A stretch of 29,199 nucleotides of DNA, taken from a virus. Below the pieces are notes generated by a model. It saw only the letters and a list, made by a program, of their open reading frames with translations, ran no database searches and was not told the origin of the DNA. Made by a program: the position numbers and the translations under genes. Below are positions 1,140-23,400 of the stretch, in pieces (position 1 is the stretch's first letter; every line of letters begins with the position of its first letter). The stretch is taken from positions 64,001 to 93,199 of IMG/VR virus record IMGVR_UViG_3300028591_004246, one strand, 5' to 3'.

Positions 1140-1154
1140 AAGGAGGTTTTTAAA

Positions 1155-2912: not shown

Positions 2913-2990
2913 CCTCTGCAAGCACGAATATTTAGCAAAAACACGCCTGGGAAATTTTTTAATCGAATCCCTTAAAAAGGAGAAAAACAA

Positions 2991-3158
2991 TGTCAAAAAA
3001 TAATCAAGTTCAAGATGATAATGAAAAACTTCGTAAAGATTTTAAGCGTTTTATTAATAGTAAAAAGTTTATTGATTTTATAGTTCAAAATGCTCCAGAT
3101 ATTTATGTTTCAACTATTATTTTTGAGGCTCTTGATAAAGCATTAAAGGAAATTTAAT
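2991..3158 (+). CDS. hypothetical small protein (55 aa)
   Basis: ATG preceded by AAAGGAGAAAAACA. Encodes a 55-aa basic protein (MSKNNQVQDDNEKLRKDFKRF...) that falls below the ORF-track length cut-off. It lies between the RecJ-like gene and the polymerase promoter. Confidence 0.4.
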
Positions 3159-3187
3159 TGACAACTTTTAATTTATAATGATATAAT
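3158..3187 (+). promoter_or_regulatory. sigma-70-type promoter upstream of Pol III alpha gene
   Basis: -35 TTGACA at 3158-3163, an 18-nt spacer, and an extended -10 TGaTATAAT at 3179-3187. It lies about 30 nt upstream of the GTG start at 3217, and an AAAGGTG SD follows. Confidence 0.6.
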
Positions 3188-3216
3188 ATTAATGTAAGAT
3201 AAAATAGTGACGAAAG

Positions 3217-7041: not shown

Positions 7042-7059
7042 AAATATTCTTCTCCTTTT
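7030..7059 (+). terminator. perfect 11-bp stem-loop spanning the Pol III stop codon, followed by TTTT (attenuator or partial terminator)
   Basis: GGAGAAGAATA (7030-7040), loop GAAA, TATTCTTCTCC (7045-7055), then TTTTG. The TAG stop at 7039-7041 lies inside the stem. The RBS GGAGATAAAATG of the next gene follows immediately. Confidence 0.5.
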
Positions 7060-7068
7060 GGAGATAAA

Positions 7069-7383
7069 ATGAATGAATATTGATTTGTACATGAGCCTAA
7101 ACCTGAATGGGTGCGGGAATTGCAAGAACAAGGAATTTTAACTGGCCCTGAATATGCTGCTGTAACTATAGTATATACTTTTTATACAGGAGAACATAAA
7201 GATTATCTTTATGATGGAGATGCTTTAATTAAAACTACAGAAGGTATTATTGCTCCAATTTCTTATCAGTGGATAGACAGAGCTAAAAGAAAAAATCCAG
7301 ATATGAAATTATATTCACCAGTTGAAGGACAAATGGAAGAAATTCTTGCATCTATTTATTCCAATTTGGGCAAAAATAAATAA
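7069..7383 (+). CDS. hypothetical protein (104 aa)
   Basis: ATG at 7069 with SD GGAG 7-8 nt upstream. The frame is open through a TGA at 7081-7083 (Trp) and joins the track ORF 7111..7383. No recognisable motif. Confidence 0.5.
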
Positions 7384-7445
7384 ATTGTAAATTTTTAATT
7401 ATATTATAAATAAGTGAGCACAAAATCTAGTATAGGGAGGAATAG

Positions 7446-7649
7446 ATGATTACACTTTATAGTACAGGTTGTCCTCGTTGTAAAGTTTTAGAGCAAAAAC
7501 TTCAACAAAAAAATATTGATTTTAATATAGAATCAAATATGCAAACTATTATTGATATGGGTTTTAGAGCAGCTCCTATTCTTAAAGTAGATGAAAACTT
7601 TTATGATTTTGGAGGAGCTATTAAGTGGGTAAATTCATATGAAGATTAA
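7446..7649 (+). CDS. nrdH: glutaredoxin-like / NrdH-type redoxin
   Basis: 67-aa ORF with a CPRC redox motif near the N-terminus and an overall thioredoxin-fold pattern. SD GGGAGG lies upstream. It sits immediately upstream of nrdD and overlaps it by 11 nt. Confidence 0.6.
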   Translation: MITLYSTGCPRCKVLEQKLQQKNIDFNIESNMQTIIDMGFRAAPILKVDENFYDFGGAIKWVNSYED

Positions 7650-9603
7650 TATGAAATTAAACCGCAATTTTACAACTCAATATAATAAATTGCAAGGTGA
7701 ATTTGGAACAGAAATTGCAGAATTAAATGGTTTTGGAGATGAGCAACTTTCTTATACGGATTTTATTTCTAATTTTATAGATAAACAAACAGTAGCAGAT
7801 GCTTCTATTGATAGTAATTCAAATGTTAGTCATAAAGATATTGTAACTTTAGAAAGAGAAATGCCTAAACCCCACTCTAAACTTTTAGCTTTTAATAAAA
7901 TTTATTATGAAATTCAGAAGAAATATGGATTTAAAACAGCTAATGAATGGTTGCGGGCAGAGTGGATAGGTCAGCTTTATATGCACGACGCTCCATCATC
8001 AACATTTAGACACTATTGTTTTGCTTATGACTTAAAAGATTTAGCAGAAAGAGGGTTATACTTCTTTCCTGAAAGAAATGCTAAACCAGCAGAGCATTAT
8101 ACAACTTTTATTGATTTTGTAAAAGAGTTTGTTAATTATACTTGTAATCGATCTTCAGGTGCAGTAGGGTTGCCAAATCTTCTTCCATATATGTTTTACT
8201 TCTGGAAAAAAGATATAGATGACGATTATCTAGGCATACGAACTTCAGGCAATGAACGATATTATGCTGATCAGGGATTCCAACGATTTATTTACGCGGT
8301 AAACCAAAACATCATGAGAGATGGTTCACAATCAGCTTTCACAAATACATCAATTTTTGATCGGCCATATTTTGAAGCTCTTTTTGGTGGATCGACATTC
8401 CCTGATGGAACCTTTATGATTGATTATGAAGAAGAAATAATTGAATTTCAAAAATGGTATATGGAAGTTATGTCTGAAATTCGATCAACTAATATGTTAA
8501 CATTCCCAGTAAACACAATATCTCTTCTTCGTAAAGAAGGAAAATATGATTTAAACACTCTTGATGGTTTCGTTGATCAAAATTTTGCAGAGTGGGCTAT
8601 TAAACATAATATGAAATGGTCAGATTCAAATATTTTTCAAGATACATCTGTTAATAGTTTATCAAATTGTTGTCGATTAAAAAGTGATATTGCTGAGCTT
8701 GGCTATTTTAATAGCGTCGGGGGATCAGCACTTAAAGTCGGATCTGTTAAAGTATCGACAATAAATCTTGCTCGTTTAGCATTAGATACAGATTCAGAAG
8801 AAGAATATTTACAAGAACTTGAATATAGATTAATTTTAAATCTTAAAGCTCTTGATTGTGTTCGTCATATAATTCAAAGAAATGTTGACAAGGGTTTGCT
8901 TCCTAATTTTTCATATGGCTTAGTTGATTTCCCGCATCTTTATAATACAATTGGCTTCCTTGGTGTTTATGAAACAATGAAAAAATTTGGATACACTAAA
9001 GTAGATACGTTAGGTAATACTTATTATACTGATAAAGCTTCTTTGTTCGGTCAGAAAATTTTTGAAACTATTCGTGAAGTATCTAATCAATTTATTAAAG
9101 ATAATAATTTAGATTATAAGATTAATTGTGAACAAATTCCTGGTGAAAATGCAGCAGATAAATTAATGAAAAAAGATAAATTCTTTTATCCAAATGCCAA
9201 TATTTATGATTTACCATTATATGGTAATCAATTTATTCCTTTAGGAATTCAAACTACTGGGCAAGAAAGAGTTAGAATTCAAGCGCAATTTGATGCTTTC
9301 TGTAATGGAGGATCAATACTTCATTATAATATTGATGCACCTTTTACAAGTTACGAAAAAGCTTTATATATGACTAATTATATTGCTCAAAAAGGTGTTA
9401 CATATTTTGCATTTAATACTCGAATTTCTACATGTGAAGATAATCATGCATTTTATGGCAACGGGCTTTGTCCAGTCTGTGGTAAACCAAAAGATGCAGA
9501 GTTTACTAGAATTGTTGGCTTCTATACAAAAATTAACAGTTGGAGCCAGACTCGCAAAGATGAGTTTAAACTTCGTAAATGGGATAACATCAATGATAAT
9601 TAA
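7639..9603 (+). CDS. nrdD: anaerobic ribonucleoside-triphosphate reductase (class III), NrdD
   Basis: 654-aa intact ORF. It carries the conserved GGSALKVGSVKVSTINLARLAL segment, a C-terminal Zn ribbon (C..C...CPVCG), and a glycyl-radical motif TRIVGFYTK near the C-terminus. No TGA. Confidence 0.85.
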   Translation: MKINMKLNRNFTTQYNKLQGEFGTEIAELNGFGDEQLSYTDFISNFIDKQTVADASIDSNSNVSHKDIVTLEREMPKPHSKLLAFNKIYYEIQKKYGFKTANEWLRAEWIGQLYMHDAPSSTFRHYCFAYDLKDLAERGLYFFPERNAKPAEHYTTFIDFVKEFVNYTCNRSSGAVGLPNLLPYMFYFWKKDIDDDYLGIRTSGNERYYADQGFQRFIYAVNQNIMRDGSQSAFTNTSIFDRPYFEALFGGSTFPDGTFMIDYEEEIIEFQKWYMEVMSEIRSTNMLTFPVNTISLLRKEGKYDLNTLDGFVDQNFAEWAIKHNMKWSDSNIFQDTSVNSLSNCCRLKSDIAELGYFNSVGGSALKVGSVKVSTINLARLALDTDSEEEYLQELEYRLILNLKALDCVRHIIQRNVDKGLLPNFSYGLVDFPHLYNTIGFLGVYETMKKFGYTKVDTLGNTYYTDKASLFGQKIFETIREVSNQFIKDNNLDYKINCEQIPGENAADKLMKKDKFFYPNANIYDLPLYGNQFIPLGIQTTGQERVRIQAQFDAFCNGGSILHYNIDAPFTSYEKALYMTNYIAQKGVTYFAFNTRISTCEDNHAFYGNGLCPVCGKPKDAEFTRIVGFYTKINSWSQTRKDEFKLRKWDNINDN

Positions 9604-10057
9604 AGGTATTATTTCTGAAGATTTTATTAATTATAAAAAACCTTGTATGGTTATAGAATTTCCAGTTTGTAAAAATTTTAAATGCGGGCAAGCCTTATGT
9701 CAAAACGATCCATTAATAAAATATCCAGATATAGAAATTAGTTATTCTCAAATTGTTAAAAAATACATGGAAAATGATATTACACAAGCTATTGTTTTTA
9801 TGGGGCTAGAACCTTTTGATAGTCCGCATGATTTATTTCTTTTAATTGAAGAATTTAGAAAATATACAATGGATGATATTGTAATTTACACTGGATATTA
9901 CTGGAATGAAATTTCTACATATGTAGCTATGCTAGGGGATTATAAAAATATTATTATTAAATACGGTAGATACATTCCCAATCAAACTCCACACTATGAT
10001 GAAGTTTTAGGTGTAAAATTGGTAAGTGATAATCAATATGCTGCAAAGATCAGTTAG
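9593..10057 (+). CDS. nrdG: anaerobic RNR activating protein (radical-SAM), NrdG-like
   Basis: ATG at 9593 overlaps the nrdD stop (ATGATAATTAA). The 154-aa product has segments matching NrdG (AIVFMGLEPF ~ GISLSGGDPL; DIVIYTGYYWNEI ~ DIWVWTGYKLDEL). The Cys cluster is PCMVIEFPVCKNFKCGQALC. The track ORF 9383..10057 is a spurious N-terminal extension that overlaps nrdD. Confidence 0.7.
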   Translation: MIIKGIISEDFINYKKPCMVIEFPVCKNFKCGQALCQNDPLIKYPDIEISYSQIVKKYMENDITQAIVFMGLEPFDSPHDLFLLIEEFRKYTMDDIVIYTGYYWNEISTYVAMLGDYKNIIIKYGRYIPNQTPHYDEVLGVKLVSDNQYAAKIS

Positions 10058-10065
10058 GAATAAAT

Positions 10066-10308
10066 ATGTATTATAATAATTATTTTAACAACAACAATAA
10101 TACTACTATTTTAATTATAATTATAGCTTGTGCTCTTATAGTTGGTTTAAGTTTTCTTTTATTTGCTTTTGGCTATTGGCTAATAACTTTAATAGCTGCT
10201 CAAATTTTTAATTTTATAATTCCATTTGAATGGACATATGCTTTAGGAGCTTATGCAATATTAATAATTATTAAATTATTTATGTTACCAAGTGGTCAAT
10301 CTAAATAA
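10066..10308 (+). CDS. small hydrophobic membrane protein (80 aa, 2 predicted TM helices)
   Basis: Asn-rich N-terminus followed by two long hydrophobic stretches. It is the last gene before a rho-independent terminator. Confidence 0.5.
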   Translation: MYYNNYFNNNNNTTILIIIIACALIVGLSFLLFAFGYWLITLIAAQIFNFIIPFEWTYALGAYAILIIIKLFMLPSGQSK

Positions 10309-10313
10309 AAAAT

Positions 10314-10362
10314 GCCTCAACAAAAGAATAAAAAATTCTAATGTTGAGGCTTATTTTTTTTT
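10314..10362 (+). terminator. rho-independent terminator closing the pol/nrd operon
   Basis: Stem GCCTCAACA (10314-10322) pairs with TGTTGAGGC (10342-10350). It is followed by TTATTTTTTTTT. Confidence 0.75.
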
Positions 10363-10390
10363 GACATTTTATTTAATAATATAGTATAAT
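10361..10390 (+). promoter_or_regulatory. near-consensus sigma-70 promoter for the downstream small-ORF/dUTPase/RuvC/SPFH operon
   Basis: -35 TTGACA at 10361-10366, an 18-nt spacer, and -10 TATAAT at 10385-10390. It is followed by the SD AAAGGAG and the ATG at 10414. Confidence 0.6.
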
Positions 10391-10413
10391 ATAATAAAAC
10401 GAAAGGAGATTAT

Positions 10414-10812
10414 ATGGGAGATGTTTCTTTAGGTACTGTATATGATATTAATAAAACTGTATATAGTAATCAATCAGAAAAAATGCCAGAAGCTTTAGTT
10501 CAATCCATGTTAAAAAAAGTTTCAAGCTGGTTTAAAACTAAAGCTCTTTGTGAAGCACAATATTATATGTTTCTTTGTCGTGATCGTAATGATTATACAA
10601 TTTTTAATTTTATAAAAAATAATCCAGAAAAAGGAATCAAAGAATTAATTGAATTAATTCAATCTCGTGGAATTCTTAAAGATATTGTCTATAATGAAAA
10701 ATATAATTATTATGAATTTTGGATTAGTATAGATACAGAAGGATTTAGACCAGAAATGTATATGTATATTCTTTTTCCATGTAATGAATTTGTAATCGAG
10801 ATTGGAGATTAA
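10414..10812 (+). CDS. hypothetical protein (132 aa)
   Basis: Intact ORF with a good SD. No recognisable motif. Confidence 0.5.
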   Translation: MGDVSLGTVYDINKTVYSNQSEKMPEALVQSMLKKVSSWFKTKALCEAQYYMFLCRDRNDYTIFNFIKNNPEKGIKELIELIQSRGILKDIVYNEKYNYYEFWISIDTEGFRPEMYMYILFPCNEFVIEIGD

Positions 10813-10814
10813 AT

Positions 10815-11075
10815 ATGGATATGATGATTGCTGCTCGTCCCGCAGCTAATATTACAATTATGATTACGCAAGAAACTCCAGAATATGATGCTCAAATGGT
10901 AGCTTCTCAAACTGTTTTTGAAAAAGATTTGGAAAAAACAATTAGAAAATATTTAAATGATTATAAAATTGAAACAATATCTATATACGGTCCTTTAGAT
11001 TATATTGAACATTTAGCTGATACTCTTGGTAAAACTTTTAATCGTGAAATTACTATAATTGGAGCTGGTGTATAA
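10815..11075 (+). CDS. hypothetical protein (86 aa)
   Basis: Intact ORF that starts 3 nt after the previous stop. Its TAATG overlaps the start of the next ORF. Confidence 0.5.
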   Translation: MDMMIAARPAANITIMITQETPEYDAQMVASQTVFEKDLEKTIRKYLNDYKIETISIYGPLDYIEHLADTLGKTFNREITIIGAGV

Positions 11076-11356
11076 TGATTAAATATCTTCTTAAAACAAC
11101 TGAAGAATATCGTCTTGAAACTGTAGAAGATGTAAAAACTTTTCATAAAAAACTTCAACAAGATGCTATAAATCAAGGATATACGCTAAGCTCTTTTGGA
11201 TATACGCAAAAGTCAACAACTGCTCGTGGAGAAATTATTGATGAATGGTGTGTTGTAAAAGTTATAAAAATATTCCAAAAAGATAAAGAACCAGAAAATG
11301 CACTTAATAAAATTACTTATGAAACTTTTAATAGAGAGGAGTTTAATGGAGATTAA
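11075..11356 (+). CDS. hypothetical protein (93 aa)
   Basis: Intact ORF. Its stop overlaps the dUTPase start region. Confidence 0.5.
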   Translation: MIKYLLKTTEEYRLETVEDVKTFHKKLQQDAINQGYTLSSFGYTQKSTTARGEIIDEWCVVKVIKIFQKDKEPENALNKITYETFNREEFNGD

Positions 11357-11768
11357 AATAAAATATGAACATGATGATGTCCCTCGATTAAATAAAATTG
11401 TTCAAGGAGATTGAATTGATTTAACTTTAGATGAAGATATTCAATTAGATAAAGGGCAATCAGGACTATTTTCTTTAGGAGTGTGTATTCAATTACCAAA
11501 AGGATATGAAGCAATTTTAGCTCCAAGAAGTTCAACATTTAAACGTTATCATTTACTTCAAACCAACTCAATTGGTGTTATTGATAATTCTTATTGTGGA
11601 AATAATGATATCTGGAAAGTTAGTTTTTATGCCACCGAAACTACTTTTGTTCCAAGAGGAACAAGAATTTGTCAATTTAGAATAATTAAAAATCAGCCTG
11701 AAATTAATTTTATAGAAGTTTCATCCCTTAATAATCAAGATAGAAATGGTTTTGGTTCAACAGGATAA
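11346..11768 (+). CDS. dut: dUTP diphosphatase (dUTPase)
   Basis: ATG at 11346 with SD AGAGGAG upstream. The 140-aa product has dUTPase motifs (GVIDNSYCGNND, RICQFR, C-terminal NGFGSTG). One in-frame TGA (GDW) is read as Trp. This merges the track ORF 11481..11768 with upstream sequence. Confidence 0.8.
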
Positions 11769-12247
11769 TGATTTTATCTTTAGATCAAGCATTAGTCACA
11801 ACAGGTTGAGCAATTTTTGATGAAAATAAATTAATAGCTTATGACAGTTTTACTATAAATGGAAAAGATTCTATTGAAAAAAGATTAGGATTTATTTTTC
11901 AAAGATTAACAGAATTATATAATAAATATGAGTTTGATTATTTAGTATTTGAAGATATTCAACAGCAACAAAATCCAAGTACATATAAAAAACTTGCATA
12001 TGTTCAAGCGATTATTTTACTTTGATGTTTTTATAATCAAATTAATTTTACAGTATTAAGTCCTTCTCAATGAAGAAAAATATTAGGTGGTAATTTTGGT
12101 AGAAAAAGAGAAGAACAAAAACAAAAAGCTATTGATTTAGTAAAACAATATTATAATATAAATGTTGATTCAGATATAGCAGATGCAATTTGTATTGGTA
12201 AAGCTTATTTAGATAGTCATAAGCAATTAGGATTTGGGGTGATTTAA
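11768..12247 (+). CDS. RuvC-like Holliday junction resolvase
   Basis: ATG overlaps the dut stop (TAATG). The 159-aa product has ILSLDQALVTTGWAIFD at the N-terminus and SDIADAICIG near the C-terminus (the RuvC D-x-ADA-x-AI motif). Three in-frame TGA codons are read as Trp. Confidence 0.7.
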
Positions 12248-13184: not shown

Positions 13185-13186
13185 AA

Positions 13187-13902: not shown

Positions 13903-13948
13903 TAAAAAAATAAGGGGTACTCTTAATTGAGTACCCCTCTTTTTTTTT
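13903..13948. terminator. bidirectional rho-independent terminator between convergent early (+) and late (-) modules
   Basis: An A-run at 13903-13911 is followed by the stem AGGGGTACTC (13913-13922), the loop TTAATT, the stem GAGTACCCCT (13929-13938) and a T-run at 13939-13948. It is flanked by U-tracts on both strands. Confidence 0.75.
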
Positions 13949-15509
13949 ACCATTTATTATCATTTAAAGAGCATTGTAAGGCTTTAACAGATTCTCTACC
14001 AAAATATCCATCTACATCAATATCGTAACCTTTATTAACTAACCATTGCTGGAGAGCTCTTGAGGTCCCAGGGCCTCATTGACCATCAACTTCCGCACCA
14101 ACTTTACTTTGAATAGCTTCAACTAATTGAGAACCAGTTCCGCTATCATATTCAACATTATACATTCCTCAATGGTAATCTTTATTTCCAAGCCATTGAC
14201 CGCTAATAACACCATCTTCATAAGTACCTAATGTGTGCTGTAAATCAATAATAGTGTTTCATCCACCAATACCATCAATTTCAAGTTTTCCACCATCGCG
14301 ATTATTTTTTGGATCAGTTGAAACATCTGGTGTGAAATTTCCACTATCAGAATTACTATAATGAGGTCTAATAACATAGGCTACGTTACCCATATTACGA
14401 TATTTTTCTTGTACGGCATTACTAACATTACCTTCAATTGTTGGGAATCCAGAGCCATCAAAACTTCCTGTTGCAAATCCAATATGGTCAGTAGCTCCAT
14501 CTCAATCCCAATTAAAGATAACAATGTCTCCATACTGTACATTATATTTATCTACAGCATAATTTCTTGCGCCATTATTTAAAGCTAAATCTGTATTATA
14601 ACTTGGAAAACCTTTAACTACAACTCCTGCTTGCTCTAGACACCAACTTACAAACATGCAGCACCATCAAATTTCAACAGAAGGTCCAGCAAGCCAATCT
14701 TCATCTCATTTATCAGCTAATCAACGGCCATATTTTGAGCCTGGATTTGGATCATCAGGAGCATAATACCCTAATTCACCATAAGCAACGTCAATAACAC
14801 TTTTAGCTGTTCCACTCATTTGTTTACTTTCTTCTTCTTCTTTCTTTTCCTCTATTGGTTCATCAGTTTGAATAGTTTGTCCAGCAGCTATTCTTGCGGG
14901 ATAATCAATACAACATCAATCACAGTCATGATAACCACTAACATCATCAAACACGATATGACCATCAGACAATCTGATTCCGCCTTGCTGTCACATTCCG
15001 ATATCTCCAGCTTCGATTGGTCAAGAAGCTCTTCATCAAGCAATTCAATTAGCATAATCACGAAGTTCATCTGCATACATATTGTTTAATCATGCATTTC
15101 CACCAGTATAAAGTCCTGCATAATATCCTCTATTACGAAGAGTATCGCAAAAAACTTTAATAACATCAGTTAAAGCACGTGCTGATAATTGAAATTGTCT
15201 TGGATCTTCAACATCTGTATAACAAGGTAAATCAAATTTATATCCATCAAGCAAATCTGCAAAATGATTAGCATCTTTTCTTGAATTCTCTGTATCTGTA
15301 GTAACTGTATAATAATATGCTCCAACATGGAGTCCAGCAGCTACAGCTTTTTTATAATTATTTTCAAATTGTCCGTCTTTGTAACGTCCTAAATTTGTTT
15401 CATTTCCACCAGCTTTAATAATAACGCCTCAGAGTCCTCTTTGACGTTTTCAAGCTGCTAAATCAATATCTCCATCTCAATGAGAGATATCAAGAACAAG
15501 TTCTTTCAT
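13947..15509 (-). CDS. modular endolysin: GH25 muramidase + CHAP peptidase/amidase + PG_binding_1 cell-wall-binding domain
   Basis: ATG at 15509 with SD AAGAGGTG, and a TAA stop. Reading TGA as Trp gives a continuous 520-aa protein (about 17 TGA). The N-terminus MKELVLDISHWDGDIDLAAWK...IIKAGG matches the GH25 signature, with TGA at the conserved Trp. The middle region (...WCCMFVSWCLEQAG ... TDHIGFATG) is CHAP-like with Cys/His. The C-terminus VDGQWGPGTSRALQQWLVNKGYDIDVDGYFGRESVKALQ matches PG_binding_1. Confidence 0.85.
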
Positions 15510-15530
15510 TTTCCGCACCTCTTTTCTATA

Positions 15531-15577
15531 TAAAAAAAGAGTCCCATATTTCAGGGACTCTTTTTATTTTATTTTTT
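15531..15577. terminator. stem-loop terminator between holin and endolysin genes (U-tracts on both strands)
   Basis: AAAAAAA, then stem AAGAGTCCC (15537-15545), loop ATATTTCA, stem GGGACTCTT (15554-15562), then TTTTATTTTATTTTTTT. Confidence 0.55.
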
Positions 15578-15859
15578 TAGATGAGCAGGCTGCTTTTTTA
15601 ATTCACGCATTAGTATGTCTGCTTGAAGAGCGGGTTGAGTAAAGCTGTTATTCTTCCATCAAGCAATAATAGAAGCTAAAATAACAGCAACACCTGAAGC
15701 AATTTCATAAATATTGTTTTCATCAATATCAATAGGAGTTCACCCAAGTAAAGCGCAAAAAGCATTAACTAATGCGATAAATAGAACGATGGTTCTAGCA
15801 ATAGTCCCAGGTTCAATTGAAAGCAATCCATCTAAATTAATTGTTTTTGCTTCAGCCAT
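15569..15859 (-). CDS. holin (phiLC3/LL-H-type, Phage_holin_1-like)
   Basis: ATG at 15859 with SD GAAGGTG. The 96-aa product has central hydrophobic segments (IVLFIALVNAFCALLGW, GVAVILASIIAWW) and a charged C-terminus (MRELKKQPAHLKK). It contains 2 TGA-Trp codons and lies immediately upstream of the endolysin. Confidence 0.7.
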
Positions 15860-15884
15860 TTAAAACACCTTCTTAATTAACTAA

Positions 15885-16685
15885 TTATTCTCCAGAACTG
15901 CTTCCACCAGCAACGAGTTCATCAATCTCTGCATTAGTAGCAAATGTAATATCTGCATCTAAGACATATGGAGAAAGATCAACGAAGCCAGGAAGTACAT
16001 CGAACTTATATGCAGGAGACTGACCAGTTGTATCAGTATCAACAACAACTACATTGGTTCCAGCAGGATAGGTCTTAGTTGTTCCACTAGCATATTCAAC
16101 GAAATCGCTAGTAATAGTAAAGGAGTCAGTAACATTATAAACGTTACCAAGGACACCAACAGCTAGAGTTGGTAGACTTGCAAATGCTACAGAACCAGCA
16201 GGTTTATAAACAGTAGCAATCTGAGCAGCTACAGTGTCATCAACATAAGTTTTAACAGCTGCACCTGTTGGAAGTTTTTCGTCATTAGTAAGTGTAGTCT
16301 CAACGTCTTTATAAGCAGCAGCGTCAAGACCATGAACGGCTACATCTGAACCATTAACAGCAACAGTACCATTTGTAGCACCTTCGGCAACTGTAACATT
16401 AACTTTCTTGGTTGTGCTATCAGGAGTTAAATCTGTAGCATTAACTTGGACACCAAGAACTGGAATTGTTACGTCAACCTTTTTGTTAGCATCAGGAGTT
16501 AAATCAGCACTATTAACTTGAACACCAAGAATTGGAACTTCAACATCAACAGCACCATTAGAATCCTGTGTTAGAGCTGTACCGTTACGTTTAACAGTTT
16601 TTACTGCACCAGCAGGAGCAAAAGTTTCTGTAGCTTTCTGCCATAAACGTTGAATACCAGCCCAATCAACGAGTTTCATCGCCAT
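15885..16685 (-). CDS. hypothetical virion/structural protein with internal tandem 24-aa repeat (Ala/Val/Thr/Gly-rich, acidic)
   Basis: Intact 266-aa ORF (ATG at 16685, SD AAAGGGTG, TAA stop). The local GC content is clearly higher than in the flanks. Its Trp codons are TGG, with no TGA. A 72-nt unit is tandemly duplicated. Confidence 0.6.
   Translation of the reverse strand: MAMKLVDWAGIQRLWQKATETFAPAGAVKTVKRNGTALTQDSNGAVDVEVPILGVQVNSADLTPDANKKVDVTIPVLGVQVNATDLTPDSTTKKVNVTVAEGATNGTVAVNGSDVAVHGLDAAAYKDVETTLTNDEKLPTGAAVKTYVDDTVAAQIATVYKPAGSVAFASLPTLAVGVLGNVYNVTDSFTITSDFVEYASGTTKTYPAGTNVVVVDTDTTGQSPAYKFDVLPGFVDLSPYVLDADITFATNAEIDELVAGGSSSGE
16422..16565 (-). repeat. 2 x 72-bp imperfect tandem repeat inside the 266-aa gene
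   Basis: AGGAGTTAAATC...TTAGCATC at 16422-16493 matches AGGAGTTAAATC...TTAGAATC at 16494-16565. It encodes the duplicated ...VDVxxPxLGVQVNxxDLTPD... segment. Confidence 0.7.
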
Positions 16686-16702
16686 ATAATCACCCTTTCT
16701 TT

Positions 16703-17329
16703 CTAATTACCTTGTATAATTTCTTCTATTTCATCATCTGTAACAGCTCTAAATCCAAAGTCCTCTAATGTTTGATTCCCTGTAAGTTCAACTCCATTAA
16801 TAGAAGGTTTATTTGTAACATAAAGATAATCTGTTACGCCTTCGAGTTCAACTTCTTCTAATCATTTTGTAATATCTTCTACACTTTGATTCATAACTAT
16901 TGCAGCTTGTGAAAACAAATTATAATCATCAGAAGCAATAAATTTATCTAAATCTATTGGGTCTGCGGAAATAGTAACTTGAAAATCATCTGTTCCAATT
17001 AAACTATTATTATCAACTTTTTCAATTTTACAAATAATATGTCCTTCTTGAATCATTTTTGATGGTCAAGCTATTTCTCAGACTGGATTAATTTTTAAAG
17101 TTTTATCTCCAACTTCAATACAATTAAATACATTATAGCCTTGAATATCTAATTCTTGATGATGCCATTTTAAATAAATTTTAGTAGAAGAAGTAAAAAC
17201 AGAAGCAGCTTCTTGAGAAAAAATTACTTTTAATTTTTTTCCATTAATATCATTGCCACTAAATATCATATCTTCTATTGGTTGATAAAAAGATTTTATT
17301 TCTAAAATACAAGAAGTTAATGATAACAT
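16703..17329 (-). CDS. hypothetical protein (208 aa; 3 TGA-Trp codons)
   Basis: Track ORFs 17078..17335 and 16862..17056 share one frame and are joined by in-frame TGA codons (17078-80, 17066-68, 16862-64). The frame continues to a TAG at 16703-16705. A likely ATG is at 17329 (GAGAGGTG upstream), or alternatively GTG at 17335. Confidence 0.5.
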
Positions 17330-17376
17330 ATTCACCTCTCCCTCTAATCAATTCTCACTAAAATTATTATAAAATA

Positions 17377-17405
17377 GGGCATCTTACTTTTTGTAAAATG
17401 CCCTA
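17377..17405. terminator. weak hairpin downstream of giant gene
   Basis: AGGGCAT (17377-17383) pairs with ATGCCCT (17399-17405) around a 15-nt loop. There is only a short flanking A/T tract. Confidence 0.3.
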
Positions 17406-17414
17406 AAATTTTTA

Positions 17415-20400
17415 TTAATTTTGTTCTGGAATATAGAAGTAGCCCTTGTCTGTATTATTATTAACAGAACCATCTTTACGATAAGCAATATAAATAGTAT
17501 GCGGGATTCCTTCCAAATTCTCAAACTTTGCTTCTTTATAATTCATATTAGAGTTACCATAAGTATTATAATTATAACTACTAGTAGTTGGTTGAGCATC
17601 TATCTTCATAATCAAATAGTCATAATTAGATTCTCCATATGAACAATATTTAATAATAAATGTATCATATCCATCAATATTAATCATACAAGTATCAGTA
17701 GTGTTATGTTGATTTGTATGTTTACTACTATAATATACTGTATGACCATCTACTTGAGTTCCACTATCAGCTCATTCATCATTGTTAAGGTCTATAGTAT
17801 ATTCTTGTTGAATTAATATTACTCTTAATATCTTTGTAGCAGTTATACTATTATCATAAATACTAGTAGCTGTAATAATTAAAGTATCTCCATCAGAAGC
17901 ATTTACTAATTTAACTAGACCATTAGTATCAATAGTAGCATTACCTTCAATAGACCAAGTCACTCCACGATATTGCGGGTCAACATCAATACTATCATCT
18001 GGGTCTATATAGACAGGAGTTAATTGAGCAACTCTATCATAAACATCTTGTTTATAACAATTGATAGTTTCAATATTGGAATCTAATCTTATAGATACTA
18101 ATTCTTTATCAGAGCCATCTTTAAAAGCGCTTAAAACATTTTTCCATTGATAAGCTGCTTTATATGTTGGGAATAAACTTAATGGAATATAAATAGAGGT
18201 TACACCAGTAGAAGAAAGATATGTATTAGTATCTGAATTAAAGTTTTTAAATACTCCACGAGCATAAACTGTTCTAAGATTTGTCGCATATCTAAATATT
18301 TCTGATGTAGAATTAACTGCTGAAAAATCTCAACCAGAAATATCTATTGTATTTAATTTATCACAATAATAAAATAATCCATATAAATCTGTGACTGTTG
18401 AGAATGTTCATTTAGACATATCGAGTTCAGTAATTGCTCTATCATATCAAAACATTTGTCTAATAGTAGTAAGATATGGAGTATGCATTTCTCCAAAATG
18501 AATACTTGTTAAACTAGGATTATTTGCAAACATAGCTTGCATTGTAGTGACATTTGTTACATCCAATAGATCAAAGTCAAAAGTTTTAATTCTTGTTTCA
18601 TTAAAAGCATGACTTAAACTAGTAATTTGTGAGGTTTCACTATTAATAATATCAAAAGAGCCAATCTGATAACGACCACTTAAAGTAATATAAGTTCCAC
18701 TAAAATTATTAAATGTAATATTTAATGTACCAGCGCTAATATCATTCATAGTAGAAATAATGGTACTAATTCTACCGCAATCACTACAATTAATAAATTC
18801 TGTATTGGTAATTTTACTATCATAACGAAACATGTTAGATACATTTGCGGAAGATGGTATATTTGGAATAATAACACTCGTTAAATTTGAACAATTTGCC
18901 ATTGAATATTGTAAATTATTAATTTTATCAACAGATAATTTTGTAGCATCAAGAGTTGTCATTTTACCTTCATAGAAAGCATAATTAAAATTACAATCTG
19001 CTTGTTCTCGCATATTTCATTTTGAAGTATCTAAAATAGTTAAATAAGGACACATATGGAAACAATATGTATAATTAGTTACATTTGAAAAATCCATATT
19101 AATATCTTTAAGATTATGAATTCCAGTTCCCGCATAAGCATAATTTAATGAATTAGGTTTATTTCTTTCATGAATAACAATTTCTCCATTATTACTTTCA
19201 ATTCAATCAATCATATTAATATTTTTAATTCTAATAGCACTTCTAATAAATTCATTAAAATTATTATTAATAGTACCTTCAACAATTAAAGTAATAAAAC
19301 TATTACTATTATTAGCTCCATTACAAATTCATCTAATTAAACTATTTCCACCTGTTCAACCATTACATTCAGAAAAATAAATATTTTGAAGAGCAGAACA
19401 ACCTTTTAAACAATCAGTAGCATAGCCACTACTATAATCATAAAGTTGCTTAGCATTCCTAAATTCAATTGTGTCAAGAGTAATACAATTTTCAAACATA
19501 TGAGTCATATGTAAATAATAAGCTCGATTAGCAACTACTAAATTTGGAAATTCTATATAATCAATAGACGTACATTCTGCAAACATATAATCATAATAAA
19601 TATCTGTTCCTTTATTAATATTCATATTATAATTTTCAGGGAAAATAATCGTTTCAAGTAAACCACATTGATAAAACATATATCTTGAATTTTGAATTTT
19701 AGTAAAATTAGAATAACCAATATCTACAGTTATTAAATTAATACATCCAGAAAACATATACTGAGTATTATTTACATTTCCAACATTTCAAGTAGTCATA
19801 TTTATTTCTGTAATAAATACTTCCATATTATTTACAGTAGTTCCAGAATCTTCCATAAATTTAATTTTAGTTATTGCTCTACAATTTTGAAACATGTAAG
19901 ACATATTAGTAATAGGAGAAATATCAGCATCATTTGTAGTTGTTGTTAATCTAAATCAATCAATATAATCTAATTCATAACAATCTTGGAACCAACCTTG
20001 CATACTAGTAATTCCAATAAATTTAGAATATTTTAAATCAATAGATTTTAAAGCTCAACATCCAGCAAATAAATATTGAGCGCCAGAATCACTTAATTCA
20101 ACAAAATTTACACTACTTAAAGTTAAATTTGTTAAAGAATGACAATTAATAAACATTCTGCTAATATTAGTAGCTCTACATGGATTAGTAAATAAATAAT
20201 TAATATTTAAAGTTTCAAGAGCATAACAATTTCCAAACATATATTCTAAGCTTCTATCACCAGCTCATGGATAACTATTATTATTTTGTCCAACTCTTGT
20301 AAATGAAACATTATGTAAATCTAAAGATTTTAAAGCTCTGCAATGATTAAACATACCTTGACAATACATAACATTAGAAAATAATCAGCCATTATCTCCT

Positions 20401-23400
20401 TGATGTGTATTAATTTCTTCAAGAGCATAACAATTTTGTAACATACAGGTTGTACTATAAGCACCAATCATATTAAAGTGTTGATTTAAAGTTTTTAAAG
20501 TATAACAGTGTTGAAACATATATTGGAAATTAGTACATTTTTGAGAAATAAAACTATCAGGAAAAGTTAATTCTTCAAGAGCATGGCATCCTTCAAACAT
20601 CCCGTCAACTCTTTGAAGATTTGCTCCTCCAAAGGTTTCTGGAATTCTAATTGATTGAAGAGCATAACATCATTGAAACATTCTTTCTGCACTAGTATTA
20701 TTTATCATTGTAAAAGTATCTGGAAGATATAATTCTTCAAGAGACTCACAATAACAAAACATATACGTAGCATTATCTCCACTTCATAAAGAAGTATTAA
20801 AATTAGGAATCAAGAGATGCTGTAATGATTTACAATTATAAAACATTTGATAAAAATCAGAACATTTAATAGTATTAAAACTTGTTAAATCTAACTCTTG
20901 TAAAGATTGACAATCATAAAACATTTCATACATTGTAGTAACATTTTCTGTTGAAAAATTATTAAAATCTAAAGTTTCAAGTTTAGTACATGCATAAAAC
21001 ATTTCATTAAAAGTAGTTACTAAATCTGTATTTAATGGAGTTAAATCAAAAGTTACTAAAGAAGAACAATAACAAAACATATTAGCACAATTAGTTAAAC
21101 TGTGTCAATATTCCATACCACTAATATCTAAAGTAGTTAAATTAATACAATCATAAAATAAATTAGATACATTTTTAATACTTTGTCCTTGAGCCCCTCA
21201 TGTAGACATATCAATAGTAGTACCTCTATATCCTCTAAATAAATTAGCAATACTAGTACAAGTATTAATATTTCACTCTTCTAGATGAAGATCAACACTA
21301 CTACCACAATAAGTTCCGCCTATTGATTTTCCTGCTAAATAGAAAGTATTATTTCTATAAATAACTCTTTGTAATGCTGAGCATCCTCAAAATTGAGCCT
21401 GAATATTTTTAACATGTTCAGTCCAAAAACTAGAAAGATTAATAGTTCGAATAGTATTAGCATTTAAAAACATTACTGCTCAATTAATAGAAGTAGTTGT
21501 TTCTTGAATATTTCATTGAGACAAATCTACACTAGTTCCCTTATAGCCACTAAACATTGCTACAAAACTTGTTTGCTGTGAAACATCTCAATGACCAATG
21601 TTTAAAGGAATTTTAATATTATAAAACATTTGCCCAACTGCTGTATAATATGTATATCTCATACTTCCATTAGTACCAGTATCAATTCATCTTGTAGAAT
21701 AGTTTTCATTACTTCAATAATCAATTGAATTAGCCTTCATTATAAATGAATTTGTTTCAAAAGTTTTAAGTTTAGAACAATTATAAAACATAGCTTCAAA
21801 ATTTACAACTTTAGAAGTATTAAATGTTTGAATTTTTAAAGTAATTAAATTAGTACATTCAGCAAACATTTCTGCCATACTTGTTCCTTGAGAAGTATCT
21901 CAATTAGAAAATATTAATTCCGTACCTTTATAACCATAAAACATTCTAATAAAATATTTCATTAAAGAGGTATTAAAAAGAGTCAAATCATGAATTTGTC
22001 CTATACTTCCATTGAACATGTCTCTAACATTTACACTAGAATGGAACTTTCATTCATTTGTTATATACAAATCCTGTAAATTAGAGGTTCCATAAAACAT
22101 TTCTGACATATTGGTACAAAATTCAATATTAAAGTCTGAAAGAGTAATTGTAATTGCCTTACAGTTATAAAACATTTGTGACATATTAATACAAGATTCG
22201 GTATTAAAATCTAAAAGAGTAACTGTAGTTGCTTTACATTCTCTAAACATCTGCGACATATTGGTACAAACTTCTGTATTAAAATTTGAAAGTGCGATTG
22301 TAGTTAATACAACATTTGTATTATAAAACATTTGATACATTGTTGTTACATGAGAAACATCTCAAGTAGAAATATTAATTTCTGGAAGAAAACATCCACC
22401 AAACATATAAGTCATATCTGTAACTGAAGAAGTATCCCAAGTATTAAATAAAATTCAAGGAGCATGTACATCTGCAAAAGTATTAATCATATTCTGTACA
22501 GAAGAAATATCTCAAGTAGATAAATCTAATCCATTAGTAAAAGTAGACAGCCTAAACATAGCTCTGAAAGAAGTAATATTAGAAACATTTCAATTTGCAA
22601 CGTTTATATTTGTAAAAGTTGAACGATACAACATTGCTCTTAAATTAGTAATATTACTAAAATCTAAATTTTCAGCTTCTAATGTTCCAATAGTAGAATC
22701 ATAAAAGAAACTAAAATCACTATCTCAACTAGGAATATTTGTTAAACTAGTAATATCTCAATCTGTAATATTAATTAAATTTGCAGTACATCCTCTAAAA
22801 ATAAATTGCATATTAGTACAATTACTCATATCTCAGGTTCTTAAATCTAATTCAAGACTAGATGTTCCCATTTCTCTAAACATACCACTAGCATTTAAAA
22901 CTTCACTAGTATCAAGAATATCTAATCCTTCAATAGACTGCAAACCTTTTAATTTATAAAACATATTCATACTATTAGCATTTAAAATAATAGGTGCTGC
23001 AACTTCAAAAGTAATAGTAATTGTTCCAGTATTATTATCTCAATTAGCTACTACTGGAGAACCTTGAGAACCAATAGCAATACCAGATTTTTGAATACCA
23101 TTTTCAAATATTATATGTTTAATTTTAGTATCTTCAAAATTACCATCTGTAACATTACTTCCATTTGCCATACGTTTAATAGTATAAGAAAATTCACCAC
23201 CAGAAATTAATCTAGAATTATATTTTTCTGGAAGAAGCGGAAAATCATAATATGTTTCTACTTTAATAGGAATATCTTCATTTCAAACAGTATACATATT
23301 TTGAACACCAGTATACATATCTTTAGGAAATTGCATTGGATATAAAACTATATTATAATCTAAGTAAGTAGGAGAGACATAGAAAAACGCTCTATCCTCA

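What the first reader, a model, noticed from the sequence alone, without database searches (positions are those of the whole stretch)
13947..15859. Peptidoglycan-directed lysis cassette (GH25+CHAP+PG_binding endolysin, phiLC3-type holin) in a TGA=Trp genome implies a cell-walled Gram-positive host
The modular endolysin has a C-terminal cell-wall-binding domain, and the holin type is characteristic of phages of Firmicutes. Mollicutes are the classic code-4 bacteria, but they lack peptidoglycan. The genome therefore cannot be a Mycoplasma or Spiroplasma phage, even though the code and the DUF285 repeats look Mollicutes-like. Either the host is a cell-walled lineage that uses code 4, or it is a standard-code Firmicute infected by a recoded phage. 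The strong TGA paucity in the early genes favours the second option.
Basis: partly seen in the sequence, partly recalled or inferred. Interest (0 to 1): 0.6.

Follow-up and report, generated by a model that had tools for sequence, protein, structure and literature searches.

The report
Stop-codon-gated lysis genes of a rumen phage
This is an intact holin-plus-cell-wall-hydrolase lysis cassette in a roughly 148-kb gut/rumen phage that reads the stop codon TGA as tryptophan only in its late genes, which is a clear example of an already published phenomenon and points to an ordinary walled, standard-code Gram-positive host.

Summary
With TGA read as sense, window 13947-15509(-) encodes a 520-aa endolysin and 15569-15859(-) a 96-aa holin. 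The endolysin has GH25, CHAP and a weakly supported C-terminal PG_binding_1-like domain. It carries 17 TGA against 7 TGG, and the holin 2 TGA against 1 TGG.

One label is wrong: the holin is SPP1-type (PF04688/TIGR01592), not phiLC3-type.

TGA means Trp. Verified standard-code homologs carry TGG at 11-12 of the 17 TGA positions. The gene is under purifying selection (dN/dS 0.07-0.11).

Replication genes have about 0 TGA against 39 TGG, and late genes 83 against 23 (p=4e-18).

Walking into 98-99%-identical contigs of the same phage found a 25-tRNA array with a tRNA(UCA), and a sortase-anchored LPXTG pilin-like gene. The polymerase is closest to those of ~135-kb Enterococcus and Bacillus phages.

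The best reading is a recoded phage of a walled, standard-code Gram-positive, probably Bacillota. Recoding would act as a translational lock on lysis. This matches the TGA-recoded phages, including 'Agate', described by Borges et al., so it is a new member of a known kind.

The one unusual item lies outside the window. The tRNA(UCA) has a long variable arm and is swapped as a cassette for a tRNA-Sec-like allele in a sister phage.

The parts
13947..15509 (-). Endolysin CDS: 520 aa, 17 in-frame TGA and 7 TGG, stop TAA. The first TGA is codon 11. The open frame extends to 15563.
   Evidence: Exact protein P0001 is in the public collection. There are 305 homologs with E<=1e-10, and most of the 120 listed have the same ~520-aa architecture.
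14988..15491 (-). GH25 muramidase domain (aa 7-174). D7, D99 and E101 align to D9, D98 and E100 of cellosyl.
   Evidence: Pfam PF01183, E=6e-23. Alignment to 1jfx. Foldseek top hits are LytC, CTP1L, Psm, cellosyl, PlyB and Cpl-1, each with probability 1.0. The residues are invariant in A1.
14427..14666 (-). CHAP cysteine peptidase/amidase domain (aa 282-361). C283/C284, H342, E359 and N361 are conserved.
   Evidence: Pfam PF05257, 33.5 bits against a cut-off of 26. Invariant columns. PHROG endolysin families 21825 and 21357.
13950..14303 (-). C-terminal helical domain (aa 403-520), PG_binding_1-like and probably two repeats. This is the presumed cell-wall-binding module.
15569..15859 (-). Holin, SPP1 family: 96 aa, two hydrophobic segments (about aa 20-42 and 50-68), basic C-terminal tail, 2 TGA (codons 40 and 67) and 1 TGG.
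   Evidence: PF04688, E=4e-24. TIGR01592, 65.3 bits against 47.3. PHROG 263, holin. Hydropathy.
15534..15565 (.). Terminator-like palindromic hairpin with a T-run, in the 59-nt spacer between holin and endolysin. It may be an attenuator; its function is untested.
13912..13939 (.). Bidirectional intrinsic-terminator-like hairpin (10-11 bp stem, 6 GC pairs, T-runs on both strands). It lies between the convergent ends of the endolysin and the last + strand gene.
   Evidence: 5 terminator-like sites found against 1.7 expected.
15866..15872 (-). Shine-Dalgarno GAAGGTG, 6 nt before the holin ATG. The endolysin has AGAGGTG at 15516-15522.
   Evidence: Read directly from the sequence.
69..11356 (+). 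Early/replication block compatible with the standard code: primase-like, RecJ-like, Pol III alpha, NrdD, NrdG-like and small ORFs. It has 39 TGG and a single TGA, at codon 5 of one small ORF and probably upstream of the true start. No gene ends in TGA.
   Evidence: The pattern extends about 10 kb further left (GyrB/GyrA-like, ligase-like and DnaB-like genes by sequence inspection) with 1 TGA against 36 TGG.
11298..12247 (+). Code boundary on the + strand: dUTPase (1 TGA, 1 TGG) and RuvC-like resolvase (3 TGA, 0 TGG).
   Evidence: The same pattern is seen in relative L081.
15885..29186 (-). Late genes upstream of the cassette: a 266-aa protein (0 TGA), a 210-aa protein (3 TGA) and a 3923-aa DUF285/BspA-type LRR protein (61 TGA, 12 TGG), presumed to be a tail or adhesin protein.

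Best explanation
The interval is the functional lysis cassette of a ~148-kb tailed phage from ruminant-gut metagenomes. The phage uses TGA as a tryptophan codon in its late genes and infects a cell-walled Gram-positive bacterium, most likely a low-GC Bacillota, that uses the standard code.

Shown here:
- The holin and endolysin genes are intact and conserved.
- TGA occupies conserved Trp positions.
- Replication genes contain no TGA, either as sense or as stop.
- The phage encodes a tRNA with anticodon UCA.

Inferred mechanism:
1. Early in infection the host ribosomes and RF2 read TGA as stop. Only the TGA-free replication genes are made in full. Any endolysin message would terminate at codon 11 and any holin message at codon 40.
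2. As the phage tRNA(UCA) accumulates, TGA is read through as Trp. Structural genes, the holin and the endolysin then become translatable.
3. The two-TM SPP1-type holin permeabilises the membrane. The endolysin, which has no signal peptide, reaches the wall. There its GH25 domain cuts the glycan strand, its CHAP domain cuts the peptide stem or cross-bridge, and its C-terminal domain holds it on peptidoglycan.

Recoding therefore works as a translational lock on lysis timing.
For: Cassette and domains.

TGA=Trp:
- Standard-code homologs that translate under table 11 have TGG at 12/17 (L082) and 11/17 (L089) of the TGA positions, with Tyr or Phe at most of the rest.
- Cellosyl has Trp at W11, W140, W155 and W159.

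Functional constraint: dN/dS is 0.07, 0.11 and 0.31. GC3 is 13%, like the rest of the genome.

Code partition:
- 1 TGA/39 TGG in early genes against 83/23 in late genes, p=4e-18, with many out-of-frame TGA in the early genes.
- 0 of 19 genes end in TGA.
- The flanks behave the same way: 1/36 in the replication genes and 189/58 in the late genes.

Suppressor tRNA:
- tRNA(UCA) within a 25-tRNA array on a contig 99.1% identical to the window.
- The same allele lies on the 148,493-bp contig that also carries the syntenic cassette, with a 98%-identical endolysin.

Walled Gram-positive host: an LPXTG pilin-like gene scoring above curated cut-offs.

Bacillota lineage:
- Pol III alpha is 36-38% identical over 99% of its length to 134-142-kb Enterococcus and SPbeta-like Bacillus phages.
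- Pilin-like hits on plasmids are all in Bacillota.

Published model: Borges et al., bioRxiv 10.1101/2021.08.26.457843.
Against: - No host is identified. No CRISPR or prophage link was obtainable, and the genome scan gave only 3 loci.
- Endolysin relatives occur in both Bacillota and Actinomycetota (Coriobacteriales, Atopobiaceae, Bifidobacterium and Actinomyces phages). The lysin alone therefore cannot fix the phylum.
- The tRNA(UCA) has a long variable arm, which is the classical SerRS determinant, so its charging with Trp is inferred from codon positions and not shown.
- No RF1, TrpRS or anti-RF2 gene was seen, but about 50 kb of the genome was not read.
- The tRNA and LPXTG genes were read from 98-99%-identical sister contigs, not from the window's own contig.
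- The timing (lock) function is a hypothesis from the literature and has not been demonstrated for any such phage.
Confidence: 0.8

Rival explanations
1. The host is itself a cell-walled bacterium that uses code 4, and the phage simply shares its host's code. Candidates are the recently described Eggerthellaceae genera Equivita and Gorillivita, or an unrecognised Bacillota lineage.
For: Such hosts now exist in mammalian guts, with envelope genes mostly intact and 31-40% GC (PMC13462651). The CHAP plus wall-binding half of the endolysin is related to lysins in Coriobacteriales and Atopobiaceae MAGs (47-61% identity) and in Bifidobacterium and Actinomyces phages.
Against: - A code-4 host gives no reason to purge TGA from replication genes in a 28%-GC genome. 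The counts are 1/39 against 83/23 and 1/36 in the flank.
- Only about half of the genes have in-frame TGA. Borges et al. report about 90% for phages predicted to share a recoded host's code.
- The phage carries its own tRNA(UCA), and 32 of 34 of those MAGs already encode one.
- The polymerase lineage is that of Bacilli phages.
- Those Eggerthellaceae were recovered from stool of equids, primates and elephants, with sheep detected only by profiling. Relatives of this phage come from samples named for rumen or sheep gut.
Confidence: 0.06
2. The phage infects a wall-less Mollicute, the classic code-4 bacteria. The peptidoglycan hydrolase would then be vestigial or used against bystander bacteria.
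For: The phage has TGA=Trp, 28% GC and abundant DUF285 repeats, a family named after Mycoplasma.
Against: - The endolysin is under strong purifying selection with invariant catalytic residues.
- It sits in a canonical arrangement of holin, endolysin and terminator.
- An LPXTG sortase substrate is useless without peptidoglycan.
- Early genes avoid TGA.
- From general knowledge, not tested here: DUF285/BspA-type LRRs also occur widely in walled Firmicutes.
Confidence: 0.02
3. TGA is not decoded as tryptophan. One version has the long-variable-arm tRNA(UCA) charged by SerRS, inserting Ser. Another has the codon read as Gly (code 25) or as selenocysteine.
For: ARAGORN labels the tRNA as SeC. The sister-phage allele passes the Rfam tRNA-Sec gathering score (50 bits against 47). 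The window-phage allele has a 23-nt variable arm.
Against: - TGA sits at columns that are Trp (TGG) in standard-code homologs, including invariant W155, W159 and W173. It never sits at Ser or Gly columns there.
- More than 250 TGA codons in late genes, with no SECIS context, exclude Sec.
- Both alleles have A1-U72 and G73. From memory these fit bacterial tRNA-Trp identity, whereas tRNA-Ser and tRNA-Sec have G1-C72.
- dN/dS is low when TGA is treated as a single sense codon.
Confidence: 0.05

Closest known systems
TGA-recoded 'Agate' phages and the stop-codon-recoding model of Borges et al. (bioRxiv 10.1101/2021.08.26.457843; later published in Nature Microbiology 2022)
   Same: - Animal-gut (including cattle) phages of about 127-154 kb with TGA read as Trp.
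- Replication genes in standard code; structural and lysis genes recoded.
- TAA-dominated stop usage with TGA stops lost.
- Low GC.
- Suppressor tRNA in some genomes.
- Homing-endonuclease insertions in early genes: the relative L081 has a GIY-YIG gene splitting NrdD.
- A heavily recoded tail protein immediately upstream of the lysis cassette.
   Different: - Clade membership (terminase phylogeny) could not be tested.
- Here the endolysin itself is among the most recoded genes (17 of 24 Trp codons), whereas that paper singled out a TM protein, a tail protein and an intron endonuclease.
- The GIY-YIG gene in L081 has no TGA.
- The tRNA(UCA) here has a long variable arm.
TGA-recoded 'Jade' phages with a code-change module (suppressor tRNA, TrpRS, RF1) just upstream of the lysis cassette (same paper)
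   Same: TGA is read as Trp, the host is a Firmicute, and the lysis genes carry in-frame TGA.
   Different: No TrpRS or RF1 was seen in the ~100 kb read. The tRNA(UCA) lies about 35 kb from the cassette in a 25-tRNA array, not next to it.
Two-catalytic-domain endolysins of Gram-positive phages, e.g. the CHAP plus GH25 (Acm) plus SH3b lysins of Streptococcus agalactiae phage B30 (PlyGBS) (recalled from memory)
   Same: A muramidase and a CHAP peptidase sit in one polypeptide with a C-terminal wall-binding module. The enzyme depends on a holin and has no signal peptide.
   Different: The domain order is GH25 then CHAP. The binding module is PG_binding_1-like, not SH3b. The gene has 17 in-frame TGA.
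Bifidobacterium phage Bbif-1 lysis cassette (GQ141189)
   Same: An SPP1-family holin lies directly upstream of an endolysin that is homologous to the CHAP plus binding half (37% identity over aa 234-520).
   Different: It uses the standard code, has a high-GC actinobacterial host and has no GH25 domain.
Mycoplasma and Spiroplasma phages (code-4 hosts)
   Same: TGA is read as Trp and the genome is AT-rich.
   Different: From general knowledge, those phages share the host's code across all genes and need no peptidoglycan lysin. Here TGA is partitioned by gene class, and both a PG-directed lysin and an LPXTG protein are present.

Membership tests
GH25 muramidase (Pfam PF01183, CAZy GH25) | Domain model matched above the curated cut-off | tested here: met
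   82.4 bits against 27, aa 7-174.
GH25 muramidase (Pfam PF01183, CAZy GH25) | Catalytic acidic residues: N-terminal Asp in the DxSxWQG-like motif, and the D-x-E motif | tested here: met
   D7 in LDISHWDG and D99/E101 in TDVED align to cellosyl IDVSHWQG and LDIE. They are invariant in 13 homologs. Which residues are catalytic is taken from the literature.
GH25 muramidase (Pfam PF01183, CAZy GH25) | GH25 barrel fold | tested here: met
   The 23 best Foldseek matches (E<=0.001) are almost all GH25 enzymes (LytC, CTP1L, Psm, cellosyl, PlyB, Cpl-1), each with probability 1.0. pLDDT is 82-96 over most of aa 1-200.
GH25 muramidase (Pfam PF01183, CAZy GH25) | Muramidase activity on peptidoglycan | not testable with these tools
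   Needs expression of a TGA-to-TGG version.
CHAP domain (PF05257) | Domain model above the cut-off, and conserved Cys/His catalytic residues | tested here: met
   33.5 bits against 26. C283/C284, H342, E359 and N361 are invariant.
PG_binding_1 cell-wall-binding domain (PF01471) | Domain model above the curated cut-off | tested here: not met
   19.7 bits against 23. PG_binding_3 scores 23.9 against 24.6. Many homologs do carry a precomputed PF01471 hit.
PG_binding_1 cell-wall-binding domain (PF01471) | Three-helix PG-binding fold and repeat signature (DG-x-G-x-T-x-x-A-L/V-x-x-F/L-Q) | tested here: inconclusive
SPP1-type holin (PF04688 / TIGR01592) | Family models above the cut-offs; small protein with two TM segments and a charged C-terminus; position next to the endolysin | tested here: met
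   85.1 bits against 27. 65.3 bits against 47.3, an equivalog model. Two hydrophobic segments. It lies 59 nt upstream of the endolysin.
   No such family was reported at E<=0.01 in Pfam or NCBIfam. PF04531 is instead the holin next to the standard-code homolog in L089.
Stop-codon-recoded (TGA to Trp) phage of a standard-code host (Borges et al.) | In-frame TGA at Trp positions | tested here: met
Stop-codon-recoded (TGA to Trp) phage of a standard-code host (Borges et al.) | Recoded codon confined to late (structural and lysis) genes; early genes readable in standard code; TGA not used as a stop | tested here: met
Stop-codon-recoded (TGA to Trp) phage of a standard-code host (Borges et al.) | Phage-encoded suppressor tRNA for the recoded codon | tested here: met
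   A tRNA(UCA) is present in sister contigs of the same phage, and on one 148.5-kb contig together with the cassette. It is not inside the window.
Stop-codon-recoded (TGA to Trp) phage of a standard-code host (Borges et al.) | Host uses the standard code | not testable with these tools
   No host linkage is available. This is inferred from the codon partition only.
'Agate' clade specifically | Placement in the terminase large-subunit tree with at least 95% bootstrap support | not tested
   The Agate genomes are not in the searchable collections and the terminase was not identified. Size (~148 kb), code and gene-class pattern agree.
Phage of a code-4 Mollicute | TGA used as sense throughout all gene classes; no dependence on peptidoglycan | tested here: not met

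The most novel reading that the evidence does not exclude
The UGA decoder of this phage lineage may not be an ordinary tRNA-Trp derivative. It may instead be an exchangeable 96-nt cassette built on a long-variable-arm scaffold.

- In the window's phage it is a 7/5 cloverleaf with a 23-nt extra arm.
- In a sister phage, flanks that are ~99% identical hold a very different allele at exactly the same place. That allele passes the Rfam tRNA-Sec gathering score.

If these tRNAs derive from selC-like or allo-tRNA-like genes and are nevertheless charged with Trp, or are charged with something else, this would be a new route by which phages rewrite a host's code. It would also explain why most code-4 phages appear to lack a detectable suppressor.
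Probability: 0.2. Interest if true: 0.6.

Novelty: new member of a known kind. Interest (0 to 1): 0.3.

Why it matters
The partition of TGA by gene class separates a recoded phage in a standard-code host from a phage that shares a recoded host's code. That distinction now matters, because walled code-4 bacteria have been reported (PMC13462651).

The biology itself was described in 2021-22: late and lysis genes locked behind a recoded stop codon. This locus therefore adds a well-resolved example and not a new principle.

Practical value:
- The endolysin, with 17 TGA changed to TGG, is a ready probe for finding the host's wall type.
- The endolysin family offers matched recoded and standard-code versions (L081, L088 and L131 against L082 and L089) for testing the lysis-timing hypothesis.

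Tried and rejected
- Megablast of 25 kb against 50,697 phage records gave no match.
- The exact-protein look-up of the window's endolysin was not on record. The parent 93-kb contig could not be fetched, so 98-99%-identical contigs were used.
- The tRNA and Rfam scans of the window found nothing. Seven further IMG/VR scans were needed to walk about 30 kb left and 38 kb right. No tRNA lies in the window, the 38 kb to its right or the 20 kb to its left.
- Host inference from prophages failed. The single genome scan returned only 3 loci: one Bacillota MAG contig that itself looks like a phage, and two Coriobacteriia MAGs matching only the C-terminal half.
- Foldseek on the C-terminal domain was not significant.
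- The full-length model's fold hits were dominated by GH25, with only a weak CHAP hit (PlyPy, E=0.036).
- Alignment of the RuvC-like protein to PDB RuvC was too distant to say anything about its 3 TGA codons, apart from W14 aligning with Tyr.
- Code 25 (Gly) and selenocysteine were considered and rejected on the aligned residues.
- Recent horizontal import of the cassette was suggested by its 35-37% GC against 27% elsewhere. It was rejected because GC3 is 13%, like the rest of the genome.
- The supplementary tables of Borges et al., which hold the clade and host assignments, are not held.
- A literature search for long-variable-arm phage suppressor tRNAs found nothing specific.
Full report
**1. 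What is in the sequence**

Under the standard bacterial code, 13947-15859 holds only ORFs shorter than 90 aa on both strands. Allowing TGA as sense raises the summed length of ORFs of at least 100 codons in the window from 19.6 kb to 31.7 kb. It also produces open frames at exactly the reported coordinates: 13947-15563(-) with 17 in-frame TGA, 15569-15859(-) with 2, and a 3923-codon frame at 17415-29186(-) with 61.

The sequence gives the following features:
- Holin ATG at 15859, with GAAGGTG 6 nt upstream.
- Holin stop at 15569.
- A terminator-like palindrome in the 59-nt spacer (15534-15565).
- AGAGGTG 6 nt before the endolysin ATG at 15509.
- Endolysin stop at 13947.
- A bidirectional terminator-like hairpin at 13912-13939, shared with the convergent + strand operon.

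**2. Identity of the two proteins**

The 520-aa protein matches Glyco_hydro_25 (aa 7-174, E=6e-23) and CHAP (aa 282-361, E=6e-8), both above Pfam's curated cut-offs. It also matches several PHROG endolysin families.

The C-terminal PG_binding_3 and PG_binding_1 matches (aa 483-517) fall just below their cut-offs. I tested this domain separately:
- A profile of aa 403-520 from 12 homologs hits PG_binding_1 modules of solved proteins: 4nso at 2e-4, SleB at 5e-3 and phiKZ gp144 at 0.012.
- Foldseek found nothing significant.

A wall-binding module is therefore likely but not proven.

The full-length model (pLDDT 79) matches solved GH25 lysins (LytC, CTP1L, Psm, cellosyl, PlyB, Cpl-1) with probability 1.0. 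D7, D99 and E101 align with the acidic residues of cellosyl. Together with CHAP residues C283/C284, H342, E359 and N361, they are invariant across 13 homologs of 54-70% identity.

The N-terminus has no hydrophobic signal, so the enzyme should depend on the holin.

The 96-aa protein is an SPP1-family holin (PF04688, E=4e-24; TIGR01592 equivalog, 65 bits against 47) with two hydrophobic segments and a basic tail.

**3. What TGA encodes**

I avoided circularity by using homologs whose genes translate correctly under table 11:
- L082/L085, a Bacillota MAG contig at 37% GC.
- L089, a temperate element at 57% GC.

At the 17 TGA positions, L082 has TGG-Trp at 12 and L089 at 11. Most of the rest are Tyr or Phe. 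Neither homolog has Ser or Gly at any of these positions.

Cellosyl has Trp opposite W11, W140, W155 and W159.

The recoded relatives L001, L081, L088 and L131 keep TGA at most of the same positions.

Read with TGA as sense, the gene shows dN/dS of 0.07 and 0.11 against close relatives and 0.31 against a 65%-identical one. The gene is functional and TGA means Trp, or at the least sits where Trp is required.

**4. The code is partitioned by gene class**

The + strand block at 69-11356 holds a primase-like gene, a RecJ-like gene, Pol III alpha, NrdD, an NrdG-like gene and small ORFs. It has 39 TGG and one TGA. That TGA is at codon 5 of a small ORF whose ortholog is annotated 11 codons shorter.

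The - strand late genes have 83 TGA and 23 TGG, and Fisher's test gives p=4e-18. Out-of-frame TGA is common in the early genes, for example 75 in one frame of the polymerase gene. The absence of in-frame TGA is therefore due to selection, not composition.

None of the 19 genes ends in TGA.

The last + strand genes blur the boundary: dUTPase has 1 TGA and RuvC has 3 TGA with 0 TGG.

In the flanks read from sister contigs, the ten-gene replication block from the GyrB-like gene to the RecJ-like gene has 1 TGA against 36 TGG. The 23 late genes have 189 TGA against 58 TGG.

Roughly half of all genes carry an in-frame TGA.

**5. The rest of the phage**

The window's proteins recur in several contigs:
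- IMG/VR contigs of 64.7 and 83.8 kb. The latter is 99.1% identical in nucleotide sequence over a 2.86-kb overlap.
- A JGI contig of 148,493 bp, with a 98%-identical endolysin in the same gene order.
- ENA contigs of about 150 kb.

Tiling these contigs suggests a genome of about 148 kb.

To the right of the window lie two more DUF285 proteins, a fibre-like protein, baseplate-like proteins, a 2573-aa tape-measure-like protein (identified by inspection) and head-region genes. Most of them are TGA-rich, and there are no tRNAs.

To the left, two features bear directly on the finding.
- **(a) A pilin-like protein.** A 515-aa protein has GramPos_pilinBB and SpaA domains and an LPXTG sorting signal: LPSTG, a hydrophobic stretch, then KKSKK. 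PF00746 scores 24.9 against 20 and TIGR01167 scores 25.1 against 15.9. It is a sortase substrate that must be anchored to peptidoglycan.
- **(b) A tRNA array.** The 25-tRNA array includes tRNA-Trp(CCA) and a 96-nt tRNA with anticodon UCA. Rfam scores the latter as a general tRNA (56 bits) with a 23-nt insertion in the variable region. This exact allele also lies on the 148,493-bp contig that carries the cassette.

**6. Host**

A wall-less Mollicute is excluded as far as sequence can exclude it, by the selected PG hydrolase, the canonical cassette and the LPXTG protein.

A walled code-4 host had to be considered seriously, because Parks et al. 2026 (PMC13462651) describe code-4 Eggerthellaceae with envelope genes mostly intact. 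In addition, the lysin's C-terminal half resembles lysins in Coriobacteriia MAGs and in Bifidobacterium and Actinomyces phages.

Against that option:
- TGA has been purged from the replication genes.
- Only about half of the genes carry in-frame TGA. [quoted passage not shown]
- The phage carries its own tRNA(UCA).
- The phage is 28% GC.
- Its Pol III alpha is closest, at 36-38% identity over 99% of its length, to those of 134-142-kb Enterococcus and SPbeta-like Bacillus phages.

Hits to the pilin-like protein on plasmids are all in Bacillota, although that collection is biased.

The lysin family occurs in elements ranging from 28% to 60% GC, so it cannot assign the phylum. Its GC3 of 13% shows that it is a long-term resident of this AT-rich genome.

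My estimates are:
| Property of the host | Probability |
|---|---|
| Walled Gram-positive | about 0.93 |
| Standard code | about 0.85 |
| Bacillota | about 0.7 |

**7. Mechanism**

The mechanism follows the model of Borges et al.; the timing is inferred, not shown.
1. Replication genes are translated with the host's code.
2. Expression of the tRNA array supplies a UGA reader.
3. Late genes become translatable only then.
4. Before that point the endolysin message would stop at codon 11 and the holin message at codon 40.
5. Lysis proceeds through holin lesions. GH25 then cleaves the glycan strand and CHAP cleaves the peptide, with the enzyme tethered by its C-terminal domain.

**8. Comparison and novelty**

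The size, the code, the gene-class pattern, the loss of TGA stops, the low GC and the animal-gut origin all match the TGA-recoded 'Agate' phages of Borges et al. Homing endonucleases in early genes of relatives also match. Clade membership could not be tested.

**9. What remains odd**

Between the window's phage and a sister phage, the flanks are ~99% identical right up to the tRNA ends. Yet the 96-nt tRNA(UCA) is replaced by a very different allele, and that allele passes the Rfam tRNA-Sec gathering score (50 bits against 47).

Both alleles share A1-U72, G73, the anticodon loop CUUCAAA and a variable-arm loop GUCCAAA. A long variable arm is the classical SerRS determinant, which sits uneasily with TGA lying at Trp positions. 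The identity of the amino acid carried needs an experiment.

A ROOL RNA (298 bits) lies inside the same tRNA array. That context is typical of this RNA class (PMC5737381).

Noticed in passing
L126:3041-3136 and L125:3437-3532 (sister contigs, about 35 kb left of the window): The 96-nt tRNA(UCA) is swapped as a precise cassette between ~99%-identical flanks. One allele is a 7/5 cloverleaf with a 23-nt variable arm (Rfam tRNA, 56 bits). The other passes the Rfam tRNA-Sec gathering score (50 bits against 47). Both have A1-U72, G73 and a GUCCAAA variable-arm loop. Which amino acid they carry is unknown.
   Followed up: partly
L126:10001-11545 (= L101:54-1601): The phage encodes a SpaH/EbpB-like pilin protein with isopeptide domains and an LPSTG sortase anchor (2 TGA, 0 TGG). 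This is unusual cargo for a large and apparently virulent phage. Only one other phage record in INPHARED has a relative.
   Followed up: partly
L126:7067-7714: A full-length ROOL RNA (RF03087, 297.6 bits, model positions 1-574) is embedded in the phage's 25-tRNA array.
   Followed up: partly
L126:2930-3004 against L125:3320-3394: The same tRNA body carries anticodon UAC (Val) in one phage and UAG (Leu) in the sister phage. A single anticodon base differs, along with one other base.
   Followed up: no
L126:2906-2929, 3365-3388 and 9272-9295: A ~24-nt motif (CGTGATAGTTAAAACAGTTACTTC) recurs just 5' of several tRNAs: 3 copies within 3 mismatches against 0 expected. Looser copies are visible in the alignment. 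Its role is unknown; it may be a processing site or a promoter.
   Followed up: partly
window 17415-29186(-); L097:2764-6417 and 6428-9988: Three consecutive giant DUF285/BspA-type LRR proteins (3923, 1217 and 1186 aa) lie upstream of the lysis cassette. They are presumably receptor-binding or adhesin proteins. The largest has 61 TGA.
   Followed up: partly
window 14001-17000: A GC-rich island (34-37% against about 27%) covers the lysis cassette and a 266-aa Ala/Val/Thr-rich protein (15885-16685) that has no TGA at all. GC3 is as low as elsewhere, so the cause is amino-acid composition and not recent transfer.
   Followed up: yes
window 15534-15565: A terminator-like palindrome with a T-run sits between the holin and the endolysin. 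It could uncouple or attenuate endolysin transcription.
   Followed up: no
window 11298-12247(+): The code boundary falls inside the + strand operon. dUTPase (1 TGA) and RuvC (3 TGA, 0 TGG) are recoded although they follow TGA-free replication genes on the same strand. The same is true in L081.
   Followed up: partly
L081:15897-18857: In the ~150-kb relative, NrdD is split by a GIY-YIG endonuclease gene, whereas it is intact in the window (7639-9603). Unlike the intron endonuclease highlighted by Borges et al., this one has no TGA.
   Followed up: partly
L089 (ENA WILK20 scaffold, 57% GC); L088 (ENA 147-kb contig): The same three-domain endolysin family (60-65% identity) occurs in two other settings. 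One is a standard-code, high-GC temperate element, next to a serine recombinase and a Phage_holin_1 holin. The other is an unrelated TGA-recoded large phage, next to a 14-tRNA array. The lysin module therefore moves across codes and host GC ranges.
   Followed up: partly
window 12249-13894(+): An SPFH/Band_7 membrane protein and a 235-aa predicted lipoprotein (lipobox LSILGC) end the + strand operon. They abut the lysis cassette across the shared terminator. A role in lysis control or superinfection exclusion is possible but was not examined.
   Followed up: no
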